Shown in pieces: positions 48,888-56,196 of a stretch of DNA of 64,000 bases (position 1 is the first letter of the stretch; the number at the start of each line of letters is the position of its first letter). The position numbers and the translations under genes are program-made. The DNA comes from Naegleria gruberi (Eukaryota): assembly GCA_000004985.1 (NCBI GenBank), contig GG738874.1; one strand, 5' to 3'. Under the pieces are notes generated by a model. It was not told the DNA's origin. It made no database searches and saw only the letters and a program-made list of their open reading frames with translations.

Positions 48888-49247
48888 TTGATGATCAAAG
48901 CCTTAATGGAAAGAAGACAAACGTTTAAAAAAATGCCTTACAGAGAAGATAGTGATGACGATGATGAAGATATTGAGGAATATGAAGATGAGGATGATAG
49001 AGAGGAAGAAGAATATCATCGTCGTAAGGAAAGAGAAGAAGAGGAGGAAGAAGAACAAGATCCAATAGTTGAGGAGGACGAAGAAGAAGAGGAAGAGGAA
49101 GAGCCCGAGGAGGAAGAAGAAGAGCACCAAGAAGAGGAGGAACATGAAGAAGAAGAGCATGATGAGGAAGAGGAACATGAAGAGCATGATGAGGATGAAC
49201 ATTACGATGATGAGGAAGAGGAAGAACATAGAAGAAGAGGAGGATGA
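48888..49247 (+). CDS. Acidic poly-E/D ORF (119 aa) immediately upstream of and overlapping the Sec8 reading frame. Uncertain: either an N-terminal extension of Sec8 separated by a 1-nt frameshift, or a spurious or separate ORF in a GAA/GAG repeat.
   Basis: ATG at 48888 followed by DSDDDDEDIEEYEDEDD...(E)n. The +1 frame over the same repeat reads K/R-rich and runs into the Sec8 ORF. Confidence 0.3.
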   Translation: MMIKALMERRQTFKKMPYREDSDDDDEDIEEYEDEDDREEEEYHRRKEREEEEEEEQDPIVEEDEEEEEEEEPEEEEEEHQEEEEHEEEEHDEEEEHEEHDEDEHYDDEEEEEHRRRGG

Positions 49248-49250
49248 AAC
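48950..49250. repeat. Coding GAA/GAG/GAT trinucleotide-rich microsatellite-like tract (poly-Glu/Asp in frame 0, poly-Lys/Arg in frame +1)
   Basis: Direct reading of 48950-49250. Confidence 0.7.
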
Positions 49251-52200
49251 CCTAGAAGAATTGATCAGGTTGGAAGAAGCAGTGCAAGAGGTACTACAAG
49301 GTATTCCCGAATGTTACACTAAGGGTACACATGTTTCTATTGTTGGACAATCATTGAAAAATGTTTCCTACATTGAAGATTTGGAAAATTTGAATGAACA
49401 TCATGAAAAGCTTTCTGAAGCACTCTCGGAAATGGTCTCTTTTAATTATGAGGAATTTAACAAATCTATTAGGAACTTTTCAGATATTCTTCAAGAGTTG
49501 AACGGATCACAGCAGAAGATACAAAAGTTGCGAGATAATGTGAAAAAGACAAAAGTTTGCCTCAAATCACACGCAACAGATCTTTCAACACTGTATACAA
49601 ATTATCTTCAACATTCAGAATATTTGAGAATTTTGAATATTGTAAATGAGGTCAAGCAAGTTCCCGATAGAATCTCTGTACTTATTGAAAAGAAACACTA
49701 CTCATCTGCTATTAGACTTTCCAAAAAGTGTCACCAATATTTGAAGAATAGCCCCGAATTGAAACACATTAAGGGATTGGAGGATATAAGAAATCAATTG
49801 AAAAATTTTGAAAAACAGTTACCTGACAAGATGATTGATGCTCTCACCACACATTTGTATAGCCTTGATGTGGAAAAATGTACAATACCAAAAGAGCAAT
49901 TGCCAAAATCACCAATGCACGCGAGACCAATCTCGATCACAGAGGAAAGTATCAAGAAGAAAATTCAAAACGAGCGTATGAACACCAAAAAGCAAGGTTT
50001 TCAATCTGTCCATGAAAGAGCCTTTGCTATGGTACAACAAAAGAATACAGACTCTTTTGATTTGGCAGATAATACTGATTTAACATTCGATCCAGAGCAA
50101 GACAGTAATTACTTTTTATCCATGATTATTGATGGACTTGATACGCTTGGTAAATTATCACTGCTTCAATCTAGAATGGTTCACAGTTTAAAATATGATG
50201 TGAGGTCACTTATTGAAAAGCAAATTCTTGAATTTGTTAACAATTTAGAAGAGCAAGGTGCTGATTTTACATGGAATATTTCTCAATCCATGCTAAAAGA
50301 GAGTAAGTCAGCAACCTCTATCCAACAGGGTGCAATTTTGAAAAAGCTCTTTAACAGAATTTTCTCAAACATTGCCCAATTATTGGAAAAGTATAAATTC
50401 ATGATTGGGATTATGGAACTGAGAGCTGCCAGTTTAGATTTCAGCTCATTGACTAACACATCAGAGGATACGATGGTTGCTACACCGGTTGACATTAAAT
50501 TGACCAAACCAGTTATTGAAAAAATTAAGAAGGCTATTAATGAGAAAATCGACCATCTAAAGATCAATTTGAAGACAAAAGAGCCTAGTAATTACATGTC
50601 ACTGTTATCAGATCATTCATCAAAAACCAAGGAAGCTAATAATCTTTACTTGTCATTACTGACAGACCTTTCAAACAACTTTTTCAAGAAAAATATGGAA
50701 GAAGATTTGAGGGTTAGAGATGTCATTTCTTTCTTTGAAGGCCAATTAAGCTTGAAAATCACAAAGCAAACAGCCATGACAGATTCTATCAAGGAAAAGT
50801 TCTCCTCTCTCATCACAACCAGTGTTTCCGATTCAACTACCCCTCATACTTTTACAGCCACATATGTATGGAAGACAGCCCAAGAGGAAATCAAGAATGT
50901 TCTTAAGGATATTCTTGGATTAACAAATCTATCTAGTCTAGTTGAAACATTAGGAAGCAAGTCTTCTACTGAAGCGCTAAAGAATATTATCGATACGGGA
51001 GCTCCTTCCTCACACGACGACTACAAGATTACATTTAAATATTCATTCAATGTTGACTACTACGAGCAATCAAATGAAAAGAGTTCAGATTCAGATGTCT
51101 CTCCTATTATTTCACATTTCTCGAAATACTTTTTGCTCTCTCCATACAACATGCTTTGGGTTTACAAGGAAGTGTCAACTTTTATTGATCAGTGTAAGAC
51201 TATTGTTGTGGATGAAATTGGAAAAAATGATTCAAACGAATATCAAAGCCTTAAGGTGTTTTGTGATGATATTGTTAGGCACTATTTACTTTCTGTTGTG
51301 AAAACAGATTACAGAACAAAAATGAATGAACTATTAAGAAAGGACTCTACTGCCTTCAATTGTGTAAATAGCAAAGATTTTGCAAGTTTGCTGCCTAACT
51401 CAAATAGAGAAATTTATAATCAAAAAGAAATCTTTCTGGGATCTATTAGTTGTATGAGATGGATTAGCGAAATTATAGTTATAGCTAAAACTATTCCAAT
51501 AATCAAATATGAATTTTATAGTACCATAGAATTAGTTTTGAAGAGATACCTTGATGAATGTTATACCTTCTTTGATTTGGCCCTTTCTTCTAGCTATTGT
51601 CAACAAATTTTGAAACAGAGTAGAGATTATAGTTCTGTACTTGTAAATGAACCCCTTTTCCAAAAAGCACAAAAGTGGAAACCTCTCAATTTGAAACGTA
51701 AGGCTGTGGATCCAGAGGAAATTAGAAAGATTTTCGAACAATTAGTGGACAAACCAATCAGTAATATTACCTATGATTCTTCAAGAAAAACCCATGTCAT
51801 TGATAGAACATCTGGGTTCATGTCTCTTTCTGCTTTAAATGGTACTTTGGAATGGGTTTTGGAGAATATTTACTTGTGGCACTTTGATATCATCTCACTA
51901 ACAGCCAAACAAAACACCTCAATGACTGACTTCCATCACGCCTCAAAAGACAAGCTTTTCAAGCACACCAATAGATCAACATCTCTTTTGCTAAACTCAA
52001 GCTTTCAAGTTGTTAGACAATTGGAAGATTATTATGAAAAATTTGTAGAGTTATATAATGACTGTTTGTTGGCTATTAAGATTGATTTGAGAATTCGTTG
52101 CCTTTTCTCCGTAAAGAAAAATTTGGTACAAAATTTAATAGATTCCGACCATCCATATAGTAGTGAAGAGTTGACTGAACAGCCAGAATCATTTGTGGAG

Positions 52201-52764
52201 GAATTTAATAAGGATCTATTAATGATTTATCGCTCATTGAGCACATGTACATCAGAAGAAAAACTCAATTATGTTTTTTCAGGCATTGGAAAATTCATTT
52301 CTGGTCTACTAATCAATTCTCTGGTTACAGCAAGTAAATCAAGCTCTCCTAAATTCTCAATTGAAGGTATACAAAGAATGAAACGTAATATCACAGCTCT
52401 CCAACAACAAATCAGCTATGTAACATCAAAACAGGAATTATCCTTCAATTCTGTCATTCAATATTATGAACTTTTACTTTTGGACGAGATTGGTCTGATT
52501 GAGCATGCCAGAAATATTCACACCTTCACTCGAGAACAATATCTTTCCATCTTTAAATGTACAACACCAAAACAAAGTATTGACAAGAAAAAGTTCGAAA
52601 GGGACTTGGATGGAGCAATTCATAAAAGTAAGCTCATCAAGAAATCCGCATCCTCAGCTACACTTAGCCAATCCTCAATACCTACCACACCAACTCTCAA
52701 ACATTCCACAACTGCTACTTCTACACTCTCCACTTCCTCATCAAAACAACAACTCAATAATTAA
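49207..52764 (+). CDS. SEC8: Exocyst complex component Sec8 (EXOC4) homolog. Start conservatively placed at the first in-frame ATG (49207); the ORF is open from 49069.
   Basis: ILNIVNEVKQVPDRISVLIEKKHYSSAIRLSKKCHQYL...LKHIKGLEDIRNQLKNFEKQLPDKMIDALTTHLYS aligns to human EXOC4 [38 protein letters not shown]...[31 protein letters not shown]. About 1180-aa helical protein consistent with CATCHR tethering subunits. S/T-rich C-terminal tail. Confidence 0.72.
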   Translation: MMRKRKNIEEEEDETLEELIRLEEAVQEVLQGIPECYTKGTHVSIVGQSLKNVSYIEDLENLNEHHEKLSEALSEMVSFNYEEFNKSIRNFSDILQELNGSQQKIQKLRDNVKKTKVCLKSHATDLSTLYTNYLQHSEYLRILNIVNEVKQVPDRISVLIEKKHYSSAIRLSKKCHQYLKNSPELKHIKGLEDIRNQLKNFEKQLPDKMIDALTTHLYSLDVEKCTIPKEQLPKSPMHARPISITEESIKKKIQNERMNTKKQGFQSVHERAFAMVQQKNTDSFDLADNTDLTFDPEQDSNYFLSMIIDGLDTLGKLSLLQSRMVHSLKYDVRSLIEKQILEFVNNLEEQGADFTWNISQSMLKESKSATSIQQGAILKKLFNRIFSNIAQLLEKYKFMIGIMELRAASLDFSSLTNTSEDTMVATPVDIKLTKPVIEKIKKAINEKIDHLKINLKTKEPSNYMSLLSDHSSKTKEANNLYLSLLTDLSNNFFKKNMEEDLRVRDVISFFEGQLSLKITKQTAMTDSIKEKFSSLITTSVSDSTTPHTFTATYVWKTAQEEIKNVLKDILGLTNLSSLVETLGSKSSTEALKNIIDTGAPSSHDDYKITFKYSFNVDYYEQSNEKSSDSDVSPIISHFSKYFLLSPYNMLWVYKEVSTFIDQCKTIVVDEIGKNDSNEYQSLKVFCDDIVRHYLLSVVKTDYRTKMNELLRKDSTAFNCVNSKDFASLLPNSNREIYNQKEIFLGSISCMRWISEIIVIAKTIPIIKYEFYSTIELVLKRYLDECYTFFDLALSSSYCQQILKQSRDYSSVLVNEPLFQKAQKWKPLNLKRKAVDPEEIRKIFEQLVDKPISNITYDSSRKTHVIDRTSGFMSLSALNGTLEWVLENIYLWHFDIISLTAKQNTSMTDFHHASKDKLFKHTNRSTSLLLNSSFQVVRQLEDYYEKFVELYNDCLLAIKIDLRIRCLFSVKKNLVQNLIDSDHPYSSEELTEQPESFVEEFNKDLLMIYRSLSTCTSEEKLNYVFSGIGKFISGLLINSLVTASKSSSPKFSIEGIQRMKRNITALQQQISYVTSKQELSFNSVIQYYELLLLDEIGLIEHARNIHTFTREQYLSIFKCTTPKQSIDKKKFERDLDGAIHKSKLIKKSASSATLSQSSIPTTPTLKHSTTATSTLSTSSSKQQLNN

Positions 52765-52926: not shown

Positions 52927-54259
52927 TTATATCTTGATCGATTCTTCTGAAACAATTGAAACCTCTGGAGCTTGATGAATGGATTGATTCTTATTGGACT
53001 TTTTAGAAGAATGTTTGGAATTAAGCTGAGATGAATGCTTGGAAGACTGTTTGTTACTGAATTCATTTGCAACATTCTTATTGAGATCTGACAGTACCTT
53101 AGTTGTATCTGTAAAAATAGGATGATACAATGCAATGGCAACACATGCAAAAAGAATAATCCCCACATTATTAAAAATCGAATAGAATAATGTCAAATAA
53201 ACCCAATCAAATAGAGCAATAGCAAAAGCCATTGAAACTATTTGGAGCAATGCACAGAGAACGAGAAATATTTCAAGAATAATCACCTTAATAATTGGTT
53301 TTCTTGATTTCTTTCTATTTTCATTGGAAGCTGTTTTTGTAATAATTTTCAAAAGTGAAGCTGCTGACAACTATTAAATACAATAAATCTTATTCACTTG
53401 AAAAAGAACTTACATTGGAAACTATTGTTTGAATCAAAATTTGAGAGACAAATACTATATATCCAGCAATGAAAAAATAATTCTGATACTCCTCAACAAT
53501 ATCCAAACGATTCAAGATTAGAATAATGCAAGTCAATGCAATAATCATACTCAAAGTAATGGAGAATAGAATTGTTATAGTATTTACAATTATGGTAGCT
53601 CTCTGAACACCTTTCGAATAAATCAATCCACTCGTTATTCGAACAGTATTTAAAAATACATTATCCACAAAACACATTATCAACATCATGACTACACAAT
53701 TCATCAATGCACAAAACAATTCCAAAGCTCCAAAAACATGCATTGCAACATATCTTCCTTGTGAAATTCCAGCTTGTTCAATATTCGAAAGGAAACTATT
53801 ATTATACATATAGGTAACATCAAATCCCCTCTCCACAATCACACTTTCATTGAAATTCGAATAGACATACGAATGAATTTGAGTAACCATTGACAAATTC
53901 AATGAATCATACAAAGTCCTACACACCAAAGACGAAACCTGAACTAGACACAATAAAATAACACTCCCAATCATGACATGTTGATTTCTCTTCATACTCT
54001 CCCTAACACTCCTCATCATTAAAAAGAAAACTATAAACAATATCAAACCAATCAACAAAAGCATAAAGAATGAATTCAATGGAATGCTAATACTACTTGT
54101 GATGATTGGTTCCAAATCAATGACTTGTGCTTTTGTTGAATTGGTAGTGTCAAAGGTCTGTTGTTGAATAGTCATGATGTCAATGGAGGAGAAGGTTGTT
54201 TCGTATGGTGAGCTAGGCATCATCGAGTTTCGAACATTATTTCGAATAAATTTCATCAT
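52927..54259 (-). CDS. Multi-pass (about 7-9 TM) membrane protein, hypothetical receptor/transporter-like. 2 exons: 54259..53414 and 53370..52927. Intron 53413..53371 (gtaagt...ttaatag, 43 nt).
   Basis: ATG ATG at 54259. Hydrophobic helices FFMLLLIGLILFIVFFLMM, IGSVILLCLVQVSSLV, VAMHVFGALELFCALMNCVVMMLIMCF, ATIIVNTITILFSITLSMIIALTCIILIL, YFFIAGYIVFVSQILIQTIV. Exon 2 IIKVIILEIFLVLCALLQIVSMAFAIALF, VGIILFACVAIALY. Phase 0 junction ...TIVSN|LSAASLL. Confidence 0.55.
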
Positions 54260-54734
54260 GGTTTCTCTCTTGTTTTATAGGGAAATACGAAAGTAATACT
54301 TGGGTATTGCTGATGTAGTAACAGAGGGTGAGAGTGTTTGGAATTTTCTTTTTAACTTTTGAAAACCGTTATCACCTTCGCACTGAAGGAATATTTATTC
54401 AGAGTTGAGTAGTGACAGATTGCTACTGATAAGAGAGGGTGATGTGGATTTGGAAAAAGTTTACTTTTATGAAACATTTGGAAGAAATATTCCATAAATG
54501 AGATGTCGTTATTTCTCATATGGAATTTACAATAAAAAAATTTACAAATTACATTTTAAATTTTGATTAAATGAAAATTTTGATTATGAATACAAATTTA
54601 ATTTCAAAAAAGAAATATTTATAAATTCAATATTAAATATTTTTGTAATCTTCTTCAATTATCATTCATTTTGGAACGCACTTGGAGGGAATGGACTTTC
54701 TATCGCACCATTAAAAAAAACAAAATCAAAAAAA

Positions 54735-55871
54735 ATGGCGCCACCCAAACTCTCCACCGAAGAGGAAGAACGAAGAAGACACCTCGAACAAGAAGTAACC
54801 TCATCTTTGCCTTTTCATAAGGAACTGGGAGAGGTGATTATTAATGCGAAGGGAATTTATAAACATTATAATATTGCTGGGAGAACGGAATCGGTTCGGG
54901 CTTTGGAAGAAATTAATGTGAATGATGAATCAGAGTTTTATGGGATTAGGAGAGGTGAATTTGTGATGATCAGAGGACCATCAGGAGGAGGTTTGTATTG
55001 TGATGATGATGATTTTATTGATTGTTTTTTGTCATCTAATATATTTAAATAATCTATTTATTACTATAATGGATAATGGTCATCTATTTAATAACTATTT
55101 AATTTATTATTATTATTATTATGGATAATGATGATCATAGGTAAAACAACCTTGTTGAATATAATTGGAACAATTGATAAACCTAGTGGAGGTACTTTGG
55201 AAATATTGGGAGAACCAATTACATCAAAATCGAGTGATAATTATTTAGCTGATTTGAGATTGAGAAGAATTGGATTTGTTTTTCAAACATTCAACTTGAT
55301 TGCCACAATGAGCGCCTTTGAAAATGTTGAACTGCCCATGACACTGTTAGGTAAATTGAACAAGAAGGAGAGAAGAAAGAGAGCTAAAGAATTATTGAGA
55401 TTGGTTGGTTTGGAAGACAGAATGGCTCACTTGCCATCTGAGTTGAGTGGTGGTGAACAACAACGTGTCACTATTGCTCGTGCTCTTGCCAATGAACCTG
55501 AAATTTTGTTATTGGACGAACCAACGTATGTACATTTTGATGATTTAACAATTTTAACATTTATGACGATTGATGATCGGACAAAATGTGGATTAACTTT
55601 TCATCATGATAACAATAATTTGATACGGTATGGAATAATAATTAGAGGTGACTTGGATACAAAGAATACAGTAGAAATTATGGATTTGTTATTGAGAATT
55701 AATTTAAATAAGAAGACAACCTGTGTCATGGTTACTCACAATCCCGATGTAGAAACCTATGCTGATCGTGTTTTATTTGTGAGTGATGGAAGATTTGTTG
55801 AGCAAGCTCTCAATGAAATCCAAGTTCCTTTAATTTTCGAAAACTATTCAAACTTTTTGAAATCAAAATAA
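54735..55871 (+). CDS. Bacterial-type ABC transporter ATP-binding protein (LolD/MacB/FtsE-like ABC ATPase, 288 aa). 3 exons: 54735..54990, 55141..55525, 55646..55871. Introns 54991..55140 (gtttgt...tcatag, 150 nt) and 55526..55645 (gtatgt...aattag, 120 nt, in-frame and stop-free).
   Basis: Walker A is split by intron 1: GPSGGG|GKTTLL. Q-loop FVFQTFNL. Signature LSGGEQQRVTIARAL. Walker B ILLLDEPT, then (across intron 2) GDLDTKNTVEIMDLLLRINLNKKTTCVMVTHNPDV (D-loop, H-switch). LGKLNKKERRKRAKELL and HNPDV..ADRVLFVSDGR closely resemble LolD/MacB-class proteins. Confidence 0.85.
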
Positions 55872-55983: not shown

Positions 55984-56196
55984 ATGATGCAAAATGACCC
56001 TGTCTTGACTAAGCGAGAGAAGGTCAAACAACGAATGGACAATGAAATGTATTTGAGACAACATCCCGAACTTAATAAATTAATTTCAAAAGCAGTGGAA
56101 CACATTCTCGTCAAGAAACCAGAAGCTAGTGACTTGCATGAAGAATTGTGCAACTTTTTCAAACAACCAAATGTGAGAGATCTTTGCAAGGAATAA
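55984..56196 (+). CDS. Small (70 aa) protein with RIIa/DPY-30-like dimerisation-docking motif (hypothetical)
   Basis: First ATG in ORF 55909..56196. YLRQHPELNKLISKAVEHILVKKPEASDLHEELCNFF fits the X-type four-helix bundle pattern (Y..L...L...P.DP..F...F) of RIIa/Dpy-30 domains. Weak. Confidence 0.35.
   Translation: MMQNDPVLTKREKVKQRMDNEMYLRQHPELNKLISKAVEHILVKKPEASDLHEELCNFFKQPNVRDLCKE

What the first reader, a model, noticed from the sequence alone, without database searches (positions are those of the whole stretch)
54735..55871. Bacterial LolD/MacB/FtsE-class ABC ATPase encoded in the nuclear genome with two spliceosomal introns (HGT candidate)
The protein is a stand-alone nucleotide-binding subunit of the type that partners with MacB/LolC/FtsX permeases in bacteria. 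Eukaryotic ABC proteins are almost always fused to TM domains or belong to the soluble ABCE/ABCF classes. Walker A is interrupted by a 150-nt intron and Walker B/D-loop by a 120-nt in-frame intron, so this is not bacterial contamination but a domesticated gene, whose membrane partner (if any) is unknown.
Basis: partly seen in the sequence, partly recalled or inferred. Interest (0 to 1): 0.6.

Follow-up and report, generated by a model that had tools for sequence, protein, structure and literature searches.

The report
Conserved eukaryotic MacB-class ABC ATPase gene
This is a real, already annotated Naegleria gruberi nuclear gene for a stand-alone ABC ATPase of the MacB/LolD/FtsE class, but it belongs to an old protein family found across many eukaryotes rather than being a recent bacterial import, and its membrane partner and function are still unknown.

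Summary
A three-exon gene (54735-55871, +) has a 150-nt intron inside Walker A and a 120-nt in-frame intron between Walker B and the D-loop. It encodes a 288-aa protein 100% identical to the NCBI entry 'abc transporter [Naegleria gruberi]'.

The class call is also right. The best sequence and fold matches are all type VII (ABC3) ATPases: MJ0796, Spr0694, LolD, MacB, BceA, YbbA and FtsE. It reaches none of their curated cut-offs.

The closest relatives are eukaryotic at 62-91% identity: other Naegleria, Willaertia, chytrids, blastoclads, an aphelid, amoebozoans, Cyanophora and Ancoracysta. A second eukaryotic paralogue family (B) comes next at 50-64%. No prokaryote exceeds 55%.

In a neighbour-joining tree the two eukaryotic families form one clade (85-89% bootstrap). 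Its nearest neighbours are mostly archaeal, but that placement is poorly resolved. Both introns are shared with N. fowleri.

The gene most likely energises a still unidentified FtsX-fold permease (TCDB 'Eukaryotic ABC3'). No such permease lies in the window or next to the gene in the other eukaryotic loci examined. The gene is ordinary as annotated, and the family is under-studied.

The parts
54735..54990 (+). Exon 1 (256 nt): start codon, variable acidic N-terminal region, conserved 'K.LGE' strand, and the first part of Walker A (GPSGG, 54975-54990)
   Evidence: The spliced protein equals P0001.
54991..55140 (+). Intron 1: 150 nt, GT..AG, phase 1, 18% GC, inside Walker A. N. fowleri has an intron at the same position and phase.
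55141..55525 (+). Exon 2 (385 nt): rest of Walker A (GKT, 55141-55148), Q-loop Q134 (55284-55286), ABC signature LSGGEQQ (55443-55463), Walker B LLLDE with catalytic E212 (55506-55520)
   Evidence: all of these residues are invariant in 13 orthologues.
55526..55645 (+). Intron 2: 120 nt, GTATGT..TAG, phase 2, in frame without a stop codon, between Walker B and the D-loop. N. fowleri has an intron at the same position and phase.
55646..55871 (+). Exon 3 (226 nt): D-loop GDLD (55647-55658), H-switch H245 (55737-55739), family-specific C-terminal helix 'Q.PLI.E.Y..FLK', stop codon TAA
   Evidence: helix 278-287 in the model.
54260..54734 (.). A 475-bp AT-rich intergenic region shared with a divergently transcribed multi-pass membrane-protein ORF. 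It is the presumed promoter region. This is inferred only.
   Evidence: No functional test was made.

Best explanation
The locus is the Naegleria gruberi orthologue of a strongly conserved, pan-eukaryotic, stand-alone ABC ATPase, which I call 'family A'. Some source annotations call members 'ABC transporter H member 2'.

The protein is cytosolic: it has no transmembrane segment, and its acidic N-terminus does not look like a targeting peptide. It is catalytically complete, with intact Walker A, Q-loop, LSGGQ signature, Walker B with the catalytic Glu, a TG.LD D-loop and the switch His.

By sequence and fold it is a type VII (ABC3) nucleotide-binding subunit. The most likely mechanism is therefore as follows. 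Two such subunits close around two ATP molecules while docked on the cytoplasmic coupling helices of an FtsX/MacB-fold permease (TCDB 'Eukaryotic ABC3', 10 TMS). They drive a mechanotransmission or extraction cycle on the far side of the membrane. The pair may be a homodimer or a heterodimer with the eukaryotic paralogue 'family B'. The substrate is unknown.

The gene is old in eukaryotes. It was inherited vertically within Heterolobosea and is shared with several other supergroups. It is not a recent bacterial transfer.

What is shown: the gene model, the class, catalytic-motif integrity, the distribution, the eukaryotic clade and intron conservation.

What is inferred: the cytosolic location, the FtsX-type partner, the dimer composition and the mechanotransmission mechanism.
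For: - Gene model and identity to the annotated protein.
- Class: the NCBIfam top hits are LolD, DarD, MacB, YbbA, FtsE and DevA at 185-201 bits, against 160 bits or less for importer ATPases. The PDB sequence search is led by MJ0796, Spr0694, LolD, BceA, MacB and YbbA. The AlphaFold2 model (pLDDT 86.6) has type VII NBDs as its 20 best Foldseek matches.
- All catalytic motifs are invariant in 13 orthologues from at least four supergroups.
- Distribution: family A appears in Naegleria spp., Willaertia, Heterolobosea BB2, chytrids, Allomyces, Catenaria, Paraphysoderma, Amoeboaphelidium, Mayorella, Stygamoeba, Luapelamoeba, Cavostelium, Vermistella, Cyanophora and Ancoracysta.
- Family B appears in Willaertia, Acrasis, Pharyngomonas, Andalucia, Physarum, dictyostelids, Planoprotostelium, Streblomastix and Cyanophora.
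- Both families occur in the same organism in Willaertia, BB2, Ancoracysta and Cyanophora.
- Tree: A+B form a clade at 89/100 and 170/200 bootstraps that excludes 82 prokaryotic sequences. Core identity is 68% within A, 54% between A and B, and 46% on average (55% at most) between A and prokaryotes.
- Both introns are shared with N. fowleri. Willaertia and Spizellomyces have other, lineage-specific introns.
- Precedent for a two-ATPase arrangement: the Promethearchaeota locus L065 encodes one permease with FtsX and MacB_PCD Pfam domains (1351 aa in the fetched ORF) followed by two different NBD genes. That permease is conserved across Asgard phyla.
- TCDB lists a 10-TMS membrane protein (C4LT38) in the family it names 'Eukaryotic ABC3', 3.A.1.207 (PMC7997004 text and supplement).
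Against: - No FtsX/MacB-type permease was found. An FtsX HMM built here detects nothing in the 64-kb window or in the eukaryotic loci that carry family A or B genes. The same HMM finds an FtsX-domain ORF in 47 of 75 prokaryote-like metagenome loci.
- I could not search the N. gruberi genome or proteome.
- A search with the Asgard permease returned only Asgard proteins among the 120 listed.
- No Naegleria family B protein appeared in the top 120 hits, so the heterodimer idea is untested for this organism.
- Both families have fully canonical ATP sites, so there is no asymmetry that would signal an obligate heterodimer.
- Dictyostelid family B proteins are annotated 'non-transporter ABC protein'.
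- The tree is neighbour-joining on 206 columns, with prokaryotes sampled through two peptide patterns, so deep relationships are weak.
Confidence: 0.6

Rival explanations
1. A recent or lineage-specific horizontal transfer of a bacterial LolD/MacB/FtsE-type gene into the Naegleria lineage, later domesticated with introns.
For: The class is overwhelmingly prokaryotic, and the NCBIfam best hits are bacterial families. A stand-alone NBD is a bacterial-style architecture.
Against: - The top 120 homologues include named proteins from many eukaryotic lineages and none from prokaryotes, at 62-91% identity.
- The best prokaryotic hits are 38-55% identical and show no single donor phylum.
- The eukaryotic clade has 85-89% bootstrap support.
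- Both introns are shared with N. fowleri.
- There is no compositional anomaly.
Confidence: 0.03
2. A soluble 'non-transporter' ABC ATPase that has lost any membrane partner. It would use ATP-driven dimerisation on a cytosolic target, as ABCE1, ABCF or SMC-like ATPases do.
For: - No permease was found nearby or in any examined locus.
- Dictyostelid relatives are named 'non-transporter ABC protein'.
- PMC3743828 notes that Dictyostelium ABCH proteins lack TMDs and 'may not function as transporters'.
- The family has eukaryote-specific N- and C-terminal elements.
- Conservation is very high (68% core identity across supergroups), which recalls housekeeping ATPases.
Against: - It has a single NBD, not the tandem NBDs of ABCE/ABCF.
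- All structurally closest proteins work on FtsX-fold permeases.
- TCDB records a 10-TMS ABC3 membrane protein in its Eukaryotic ABC3 family.
- Gene adjacency is not expected in eukaryotes, so its absence says little.
Confidence: 0.2
3. On origin only: the eukaryotic family derives from an ancient bacterial donor (an endosymbiont or an early transfer before the eukaryotic radiation) rather than from the archaeal host lineage.
For: - Bacterial hits are as similar as archaeal ones, with 55% identity at most for both.
- Only 72 of the 170 bootstrap trees that recover the eukaryotic clade have an exclusively archaeal sister.
- Type VII systems are far more diverse in Bacteria.
Against: - In the NJ tree the sister group is L065 (Promethearchaeota), MJ0796, and P0252, P0259 and P0269. 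P0269 belongs to a cluster with a Thermoprotei member; P0252 and P0259 are unidentified.
- The most frequent bootstrap neighbours are P0269, P0252 (unidentified), MJ0796, L019 and L007 (uncultured archaea) and L065.
- The best PDB sequence hit is archaeal MJ0796.
- Homologues of the TCDB Eukaryotic ABC3 family are reported in Heimdall archaea and MK-D1 (PMC7997004).
Confidence: 0.35
4. Bacterial contamination or an assembly artefact in the eukaryotic assembly.
For: None beyond the bacterial-type architecture.
Against: - There are two canonical GT-AG introns whose removal is needed to restore Walker A.
- GC content is 32%, like the flanking DNA.
- The flanking genes are eukaryotic on the same contig.
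- Orthologues with introns exist in the N. fowleri, Willaertia and Spizellomyces genomes.
Confidence: 0

Closest known systems
MJ0796 of Methanocaldococcus jannaschii (PDB 1F3O, 1L2T, 3TIF), an archaeal LolD-like ABC ATPase
   Same: It is the best sequence match among solved structures (189 bits) and a top fold match (TM-score 0.89-0.90 normalised to the target, 44-45% identity). It has the same single-NBD architecture and the same TG.LD D-loop.
   Different: The Naegleria protein has about 35 extra N-terminal residues and a conserved C-terminal helix that MJ0796 lacks. It is encoded by an intron-containing nuclear gene with no adjacent permease.
Bacterial type VII ABC ATPases: LolD (LolCDE), the MacB NBD, FtsE (FtsEX), YbbA (YbbAP-TesA), BceA and Spr0694
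   Same: Same NBD subclass by profile score, sequence and fold, so the same expected docking to FtsX-fold coupling helices and a mechanotransmission-type cycle. The mechanism is taken from reviews PMC5985334 and PMC12646458.
   Different: It scores far below every curated equivalog cut-off: LolD 201 against 308, MacB 193 against 966, YbbA 190 against 336, FtsE 188 against 265. It is not fused to a TMD as MacB is. There is no operon partner. Identity to any prokaryotic sequence is 55% or less.
Eukaryotic single-NBD 'ABCH' proteins of Dictyostelium and Tetrahymena, and the TCDB 'Eukaryotic ABC3 (E-ABC3)' family 3.A.1.207
   Same: One NBD and no TMD (PMC3743828, PMC2984421). Source annotations name family A (Rhizophlyctis, Thoreauomyces) and family B (Andalucia) proteins 'ABC transporter H (family) member 2'. 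Dictyostelid proteins fall in family B.
   Different: I could not determine which Dictyostelium abcH gene corresponds to family A, or whether one does. No dictyostelid appeared among the listed family A hits. TCDB defines E-ABC3 by its 10-TMS membrane protein, and I could not retrieve or test that for Naegleria. No function is published for any member in the library searched.
Asgard archaeal two-ATPase ABC3 operon (locus L065, Promethearchaeota)
   Same: Both of its NBDs are among the nearest tree neighbours of the eukaryotic clade. It has two distinct NBD genes, which parallels eukaryotic families A and B.
   Different: The two Asgard NBDs lie outside the eukaryotic A+B clade, so the duplications look independent. 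The permease (1351 aa in the fetched ORF) has no detected eukaryotic homologue among the listed hits.

Membership tests
ABC ATPase superfamily (Pfam PF00005 ABC_tran) | Walker A, Q-loop, LSGGQ signature, Walker B with catalytic Glu, D-loop and H-switch, plus a profile score above the gathering threshold | tested here: met
   PF00005 scores 107.6 bits against a cut-off of 25. GPSGGGKT, Q134, LSGGEQQ, LLLDE212, GDLD and H245 are all present and invariant in 13 orthologues.
Type VII / ABC3-class nucleotide-binding subunits (LolD/MacB/FtsE/YbbA/BceA group) | The NBD is most similar in sequence and structure to members of this group rather than to importer or type IV/V exporter NBDs | tested here: met
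   The top eight NCBIfam hits are all of this group (172-201 bits), and importer NBDs score 160 bits or less. PDB sequence and Foldseek rankings are led by MJ0796, Spr0694, MacB, BceA, YbbA and LolD.
Type VII / ABC3-class nucleotide-binding subunits (LolD/MacB/FtsE/YbbA/BceA group) | Works with a four-TMH FtsX/MacB-fold permease (Pfam PF02687, with or without PF12704) | not testable with these tools
   No FtsX-like ORF lies in the window or in the eukaryotic loci examined. The N. gruberi genome and proteome could not be searched. The Asgard permease query listed only Asgard proteins.
LolD (lipoprotein-releasing ATPase, TIGR02211 / NF008639 equivalogs) | Score at or above the curated equivalog cut-off | tested here: not met
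   201.2 bits against a cut-off of 307.75, and 173.4 against 360.
MacB (NF007826) | NBD fused to an FtsX-type TMD with a periplasmic domain, scoring at or above the cut-off | tested here: not met
   192.7 bits against a cut-off of 966, matching profile positions 18-226 of 648 only. The protein has 288 aa and no hydrophobic segment.
FtsE (TIGR02673) and YbbA (NF007879) | Score at or above the curated equivalog cut-off | tested here: not met
   FtsE 187.7 against 264.85, and YbbA 189.8 against 336.
Eukaryotic single-NBD 'ABCH' proteins (Dictyostelium sense) | One NBD, no TMD, eukaryotic nuclear gene, and outside classes ABCA-G | tested here: met
   Single PF00005 domain and no TMD. A nuclear intron-containing gene. 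Orthologues are named 'ABC transporter H member 2' by their sources. The class is described in PMC3743828.
TCDB 3.A.1.207 Eukaryotic ABC3 (E-ABC3) | An ATPase associated with a 10-TMS ABC3-type membrane constituent in a eukaryote | not testable with these tools
   The family and one 10-TMS member (C4LT38) are documented in PMC7997004 and its supplement.
Recently acquired bacterial gene (HGT) | Closest relatives are prokaryotic, nested in a donor clade; patchy presence in the recipient lineage; possibly atypical composition | tested here: not met
   The closest relatives are eukaryotic at 62-91% identity, and prokaryotes reach 55% at most. The eukaryotic clade has 85-89% bootstrap support. Composition is typical. 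Both introns are shared with N. fowleri.
Soluble ABCE/ABCF-type ATPases | Two tandem NBDs in one polypeptide, with class-specific insertions | tested here: not met
   There is a single NBD of 288 aa.

The most novel reading that the evidence does not exclude
Families A and B may together be the two ATPase subunits of an ancient eukaryotic type VII (mechanotransmission) ABC machine. [quoted passage not shown] The families appeared in free-living protists and zoosporic fungi, and no animal, land plant or Dikarya protein appeared among the listed hits. The membrane partner, cellular location and substrate have never been defined. On this reading the gene marks an unstudied, highly conserved eukaryotic membrane system.
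Probability: 0.3. Interest if true: 0.6.

Novelty: already known. Interest (0 to 1): 0.3.

Why it matters
For the scan, this is a cautionary case. A bacterial-looking architecture plus introns does not make an HGT candidate when the closest relatives are a broad set of eukaryotes.

Biologically, the family is unusually well conserved for an uncharacterised protein, with about 68% core identity between Heterolobosea, fungi, Amoebozoa and a glaucophyte. [quoted passage not shown]

Finding the eukaryotic permease and substrate would extend that mechanism to eukaryotes. Naegleria fowleri also carries the gene, and it is absent from the listed animal hits, so it might be of some interest as a parasite-specific ATPase. 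That remains speculative.

Tried and rejected
1. Looking for the partner by gene neighbourhood. The eukaryotic contigs L001, L002, L003/L004, L087/L088, L089, L090, L091, L092 and L093 carry family A or B genes but no FtsX/MacB_PCD gene. Their large unannotated neighbours turned out to be Cys-rich, secreted or low-complexity proteins.

2. The divergently transcribed multi-TM ORF upstream in the window (52927-54259, minus strand). It has no Pfam match at E <= 0.1 (only sub-threshold Tetraspanin and Pex24p hits on its 3' part) and no match to my FtsX HMM. I rejected it as an FtsX-type partner, though it is uncharacterised.

3. Fishing eukaryotic permeases with the Asgard L065 permease. The 120 listed hits were all Asgard archaea or unnamed environmental sequences, apart from two partial entries labelled Neomarinimicrobiota, and none was eukaryotic.

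4. Looking for NBD-TMD fusions among family A and B hits. None was found; all are PF00005-only. The long fused proteins P0221 and P0265 are not family members: P0221 sits in a bacterial gene cluster and P0265 is annotated as a bacterial subfamily B protein.

5. Plasmodium ABCI3 as a possible fused relative. This was a lead from memory. The paper text gave no domain information that links it, so I dropped it.

6. Literature searches for FtsX, MacB or type VII systems in eukaryotes, Dictyostelium or Tetrahymena. They found no functional study.

7. The afdb50 fold library was unavailable. P0001 is not indexed for contig look-up. The Anjard & Loomis 2002 paper is not held.

8. Intron sharing beyond Naegleria. 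Willaertia has an intron two codons away from Naegleria intron 1 but not at the same site. Spizellomyces shares none.

Full report
**Observation.** The region 54735-55871 on the + strand holds a three-exon gene.
- Exon 1 (54735-54990) ends inside the Walker A codons (GPSGG|).
- A 150-nt GT..AG intron follows (54991-55140, 18% GC).
- Exon 2 (55141-55525) resumes with GKTTLLN and runs to LLLDEP|.
- A 120-nt GTATGT..TAG intron (55526-55645) is in frame and free of stop codons.
- Exon 3 (55646-55871) starts with TGDLD and ends at TAA.

The 288-aa product is 100% identical over its full length to the public protein 'abc transporter [Naegleria gruberi]'. So the window is N. gruberi nuclear DNA and the model equals the existing annotation. 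Pfam ABC_tran matches at 1e-30. GC content is typical of the window. The neighbours are ordinary eukaryotic genes: a Sec8-like exocyst subunit, a CCT chaperonin, a kinesin-like ORF read from its translation, a protein kinase and a GFO/IDH/MocA oxidoreductase.

**Class.** Against NCBIfam the best models are LolD (201 bits), DarD, MacB, YbbA, FtsE, DevA and a bacteriocin exporter. Importer ATPases such as ProV, MetN and GlnQ score 160 bits or less. None of the curated equivalog cut-offs is reached.

Among solved structures the best sequence matches are archaeal MJ0796, Spr0694 from S. pneumoniae, an M. tuberculosis transporter ATPase (Rv1281c), then LolD, BceA, MacB, PsdA, YbbA, YtrE and FtsE. 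An AlphaFold2 model built on 13 orthologues has mean pLDDT 86.6. Its 20 best Foldseek matches in the PDB are type VII NBDs. All catalytic motifs are intact and invariant in 13 orthologues.

So this is a catalytically competent, stand-alone ATPase of the type VII (ABC3) class. It is not an orthologue of LolD, MacB, FtsE or YbbA.

**Relatives.** They are.

The best 120 hits in a 5.8-billion-protein collection are 62-91% identical. Those that carry names come from N. lovaniensis, N. fowleri, Willaertia magna, Heterolobosea sp. BB2, chytrids (Spizellomyces, Phlyctochytrium, Rhizophlyctis, Geranomyces and others), Allomyces, Catenaria, Sorochytrium, Paraphysoderma, Amoeboaphelidium, amoebozoans (Mayorella, Stygamoeba, Luapelamoeba, Cavostelium, Vermistella), Cyanophora and Ancoracysta. 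I call this family A. It shares a conserved 'K.LGE' N-terminal strand and a C-terminal 'N..Q.PL...Y..YL' helix that prokaryotic relatives lack.

An exhaustive HMMER search of 1.84 billion cluster representatives shows what comes next. It is not prokaryotes but a second eukaryotic group, family B. Family B is 50-64% identical in the core, has the motif 'GTSGGGKT', and carries long low-complexity tails. Its members come from Cyanophora, Streblomastix, Pharyngomonas, Willaertia, Acrasis, Andalucia, Physarum, dictyostelids and Planoprotostelium. It also occurs on contigs whose neighbours are formins, RasGAP, VPS9, adaptins and nucleoporins. Willaertia, BB2, Ancoracysta and Cyanophora hold both families.

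**Prokaryotes.** A scan of one genome per prokaryotic species returned best matches of only 38-55% identity. They were spread over Acidobacteriota, Planctomycetota, Proteobacteria, Verrucomicrobiota, Thermoplasmatota, Promethearchaeota and unclassified archaea.

I built a neighbour-joining tree on 206 core columns and 177 sequences.
- Family A is a clade (bootstrap 90).
- Family B is a clade (bootstrap 68).
- A+B together exclude all 82 prokaryotic sequences (89/100, and 170/200 in a second run).
- The nearest neighbours are most often archaeal: a Thermoprotei-linked cluster, MJ0796, two uncultured archaea, and both NBDs of the Promethearchaeota locus L065.
- Only 72 of those 170 replicates give a purely archaeal sister.

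Mean core identities are 68% within A, 61% within B, 54% between A and B, and 46% between A and prokaryotes (55% at most). The method is simple and the prokaryotic sample was drawn through two peptide patterns. I therefore treat 'one old eukaryotic clade' as supported and 'archaeal origin' as only suggested.

**Introns.** N. fowleri has introns at exactly the same two positions and phases as N. gruberi. Willaertia has five different introns, one of them two codons from Naegleria intron 1. Spizellomyces has seven, none shared. The gene has therefore been resident and evolving as a normal nuclear gene in each lineage.

**Mechanism.** Every close structural relative is the motor of an FtsX/MacB-fold permease. 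The best-supported reading is that this protein dimerises around ATP on the coupling helices of such a permease.

TCDB recognises a family it names 'Eukaryotic ABC3' (3.A.1.207), which includes a 10-TMS membrane protein, C4LT38. Homologues are reported in Heimdall archaea and in MK-D1 (PMC7997004 and its supplement). In the Promethearchaeota locus L065, one permease with FtsX and MacB_PCD Pfam domains (1351 aa in the fetched ORF) is followed by two different NBD genes. That permease is conserved across Asgard phyla. This gives a precedent for a heterodimeric motor and parallels eukaryotic families A and B.

These steps are inferences. I found no permease in the window, none next to family A or B genes in the eukaryotic loci examined, and none with an FtsX HMM that does find an FtsX-domain ORF in 47 of 75 prokaryote-like metagenome loci. 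I could not search the Naegleria genome. The main rival is therefore a soluble, partner-less ABC ATPase. That fits the 'non-transporter ABC protein' label on dictyostelid relatives and the remark in PMC3743828 that ABCH proteins may not be transporters.

The acidic N-terminus (MAPPKLSTEEEERRRHLEQE...) and the absence of hydrophobic segments argue for a cytosolic protein rather than an organelle-targeted one. This is read from the sequence only.

**Comparison with what is known.** Single-NBD 'ABCH' proteins are described for Dictyostelium (PMC3743828) and Tetrahymena, which has two such genes (PMC2984421). Sources name some family A and family B proteins 'ABC transporter H member 2'. I found no paper that assigns a function, partner or location to this family, and none that discusses type VII ABC systems in eukaryotes.

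**Verdict.**
- The class assignment is confirmed at subclass level, though not as membership of any named bacterial family.
- The HGT interpretation is not supported.
- The gene is already annotated and belongs to a known but uncharacterised kind, so I rate its novelty 'already known' and its interest modest (0.3).
- The most novel reading still open is that families A and B power an ancient, unstudied eukaryotic type VII ABC machine. I give that a probability of about 0.3.

Noticed in passing
window 52927-54259 (minus strand): A multi-pass membrane-protein gene is transcribed divergently from the ABC gene, 475 bp away. It consists of a 289-aa ORF followed by a 147-aa ORF and has about seven hydrophobic segments. 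It has no Pfam family at E <= 0.1 apart from sub-threshold Tetraspanin and Pex24p hits, and no match to an FtsX HMM.
   Followed up: partly
L065 22-5693 (Promethearchaeota contig JAGXNO010000028.1): An Asgard operon encodes one permease with FtsX and MacB_PCD Pfam domains (1351 aa in the fetched ORF) followed by two different ABC ATPase genes in tandem. The permease is conserved at 42-95% identity across Promethearchaeota/Lokiarchaeota, Thor-, Hod- and Hermodarchaeota.
   Followed up: partly
family B proteins, e.g. P0177 (L003 6001-7230), P0174, P0201, P0208, P0375: The second eukaryotic paralogue family carries a short conserved motif, roughly [RK].P.[DS]Y, downstream of the NBD within otherwise low-complexity tails. 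It may correspond to the 'Q.PL...Y' C-terminal helix of family A and could be a docking element.
   Followed up: no
window 55526-55645: Intron 2 is exactly 40 codons long with no in-frame stop, so retention would insert 40 residues between Walker B and the D-loop. N. fowleri has a 101-nt intron (not a multiple of three) at the same site, so the open frame in N. gruberi is probably accidental.
   Followed up: partly
L091 3001-4111 (Willaertia magna): The annotated Willaertia orthologue needs an 18-nt micro-exon (GGGKTT) flanked by 52- and 58-nt introns inside Walker A. One of these introns lies two codons from Naegleria intron 1, which suggests intron sliding or an independent gain.
   Followed up: partly
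window 48888-49247 and 49069-52764 (+): The Sec8-like exocyst gene begins in an extremely charged low-complexity stretch. One frame has Glu/Asp-rich runs and the overlapping frame has Lys/Arg-rich runs, so the true start and frame of the 5' end are unclear.
   Followed up: no
window 55984-56196 (+): A small 70-aa ORF lies immediately downstream of the ABC gene. Its only hit is a weak DUF2452 match (E = 0.065), and its status as a gene is unknown.
   Followed up: no
L093 (metagenome contig JAEEGL010739834.1, 18% GC): A very AT-rich eukaryotic contig carries a family A gene (58% identity) next to large membrane-protein ORFs of unknown family (542 aa and 1495 aa). Neither matches the FtsX HMM.
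   Followed up: partly
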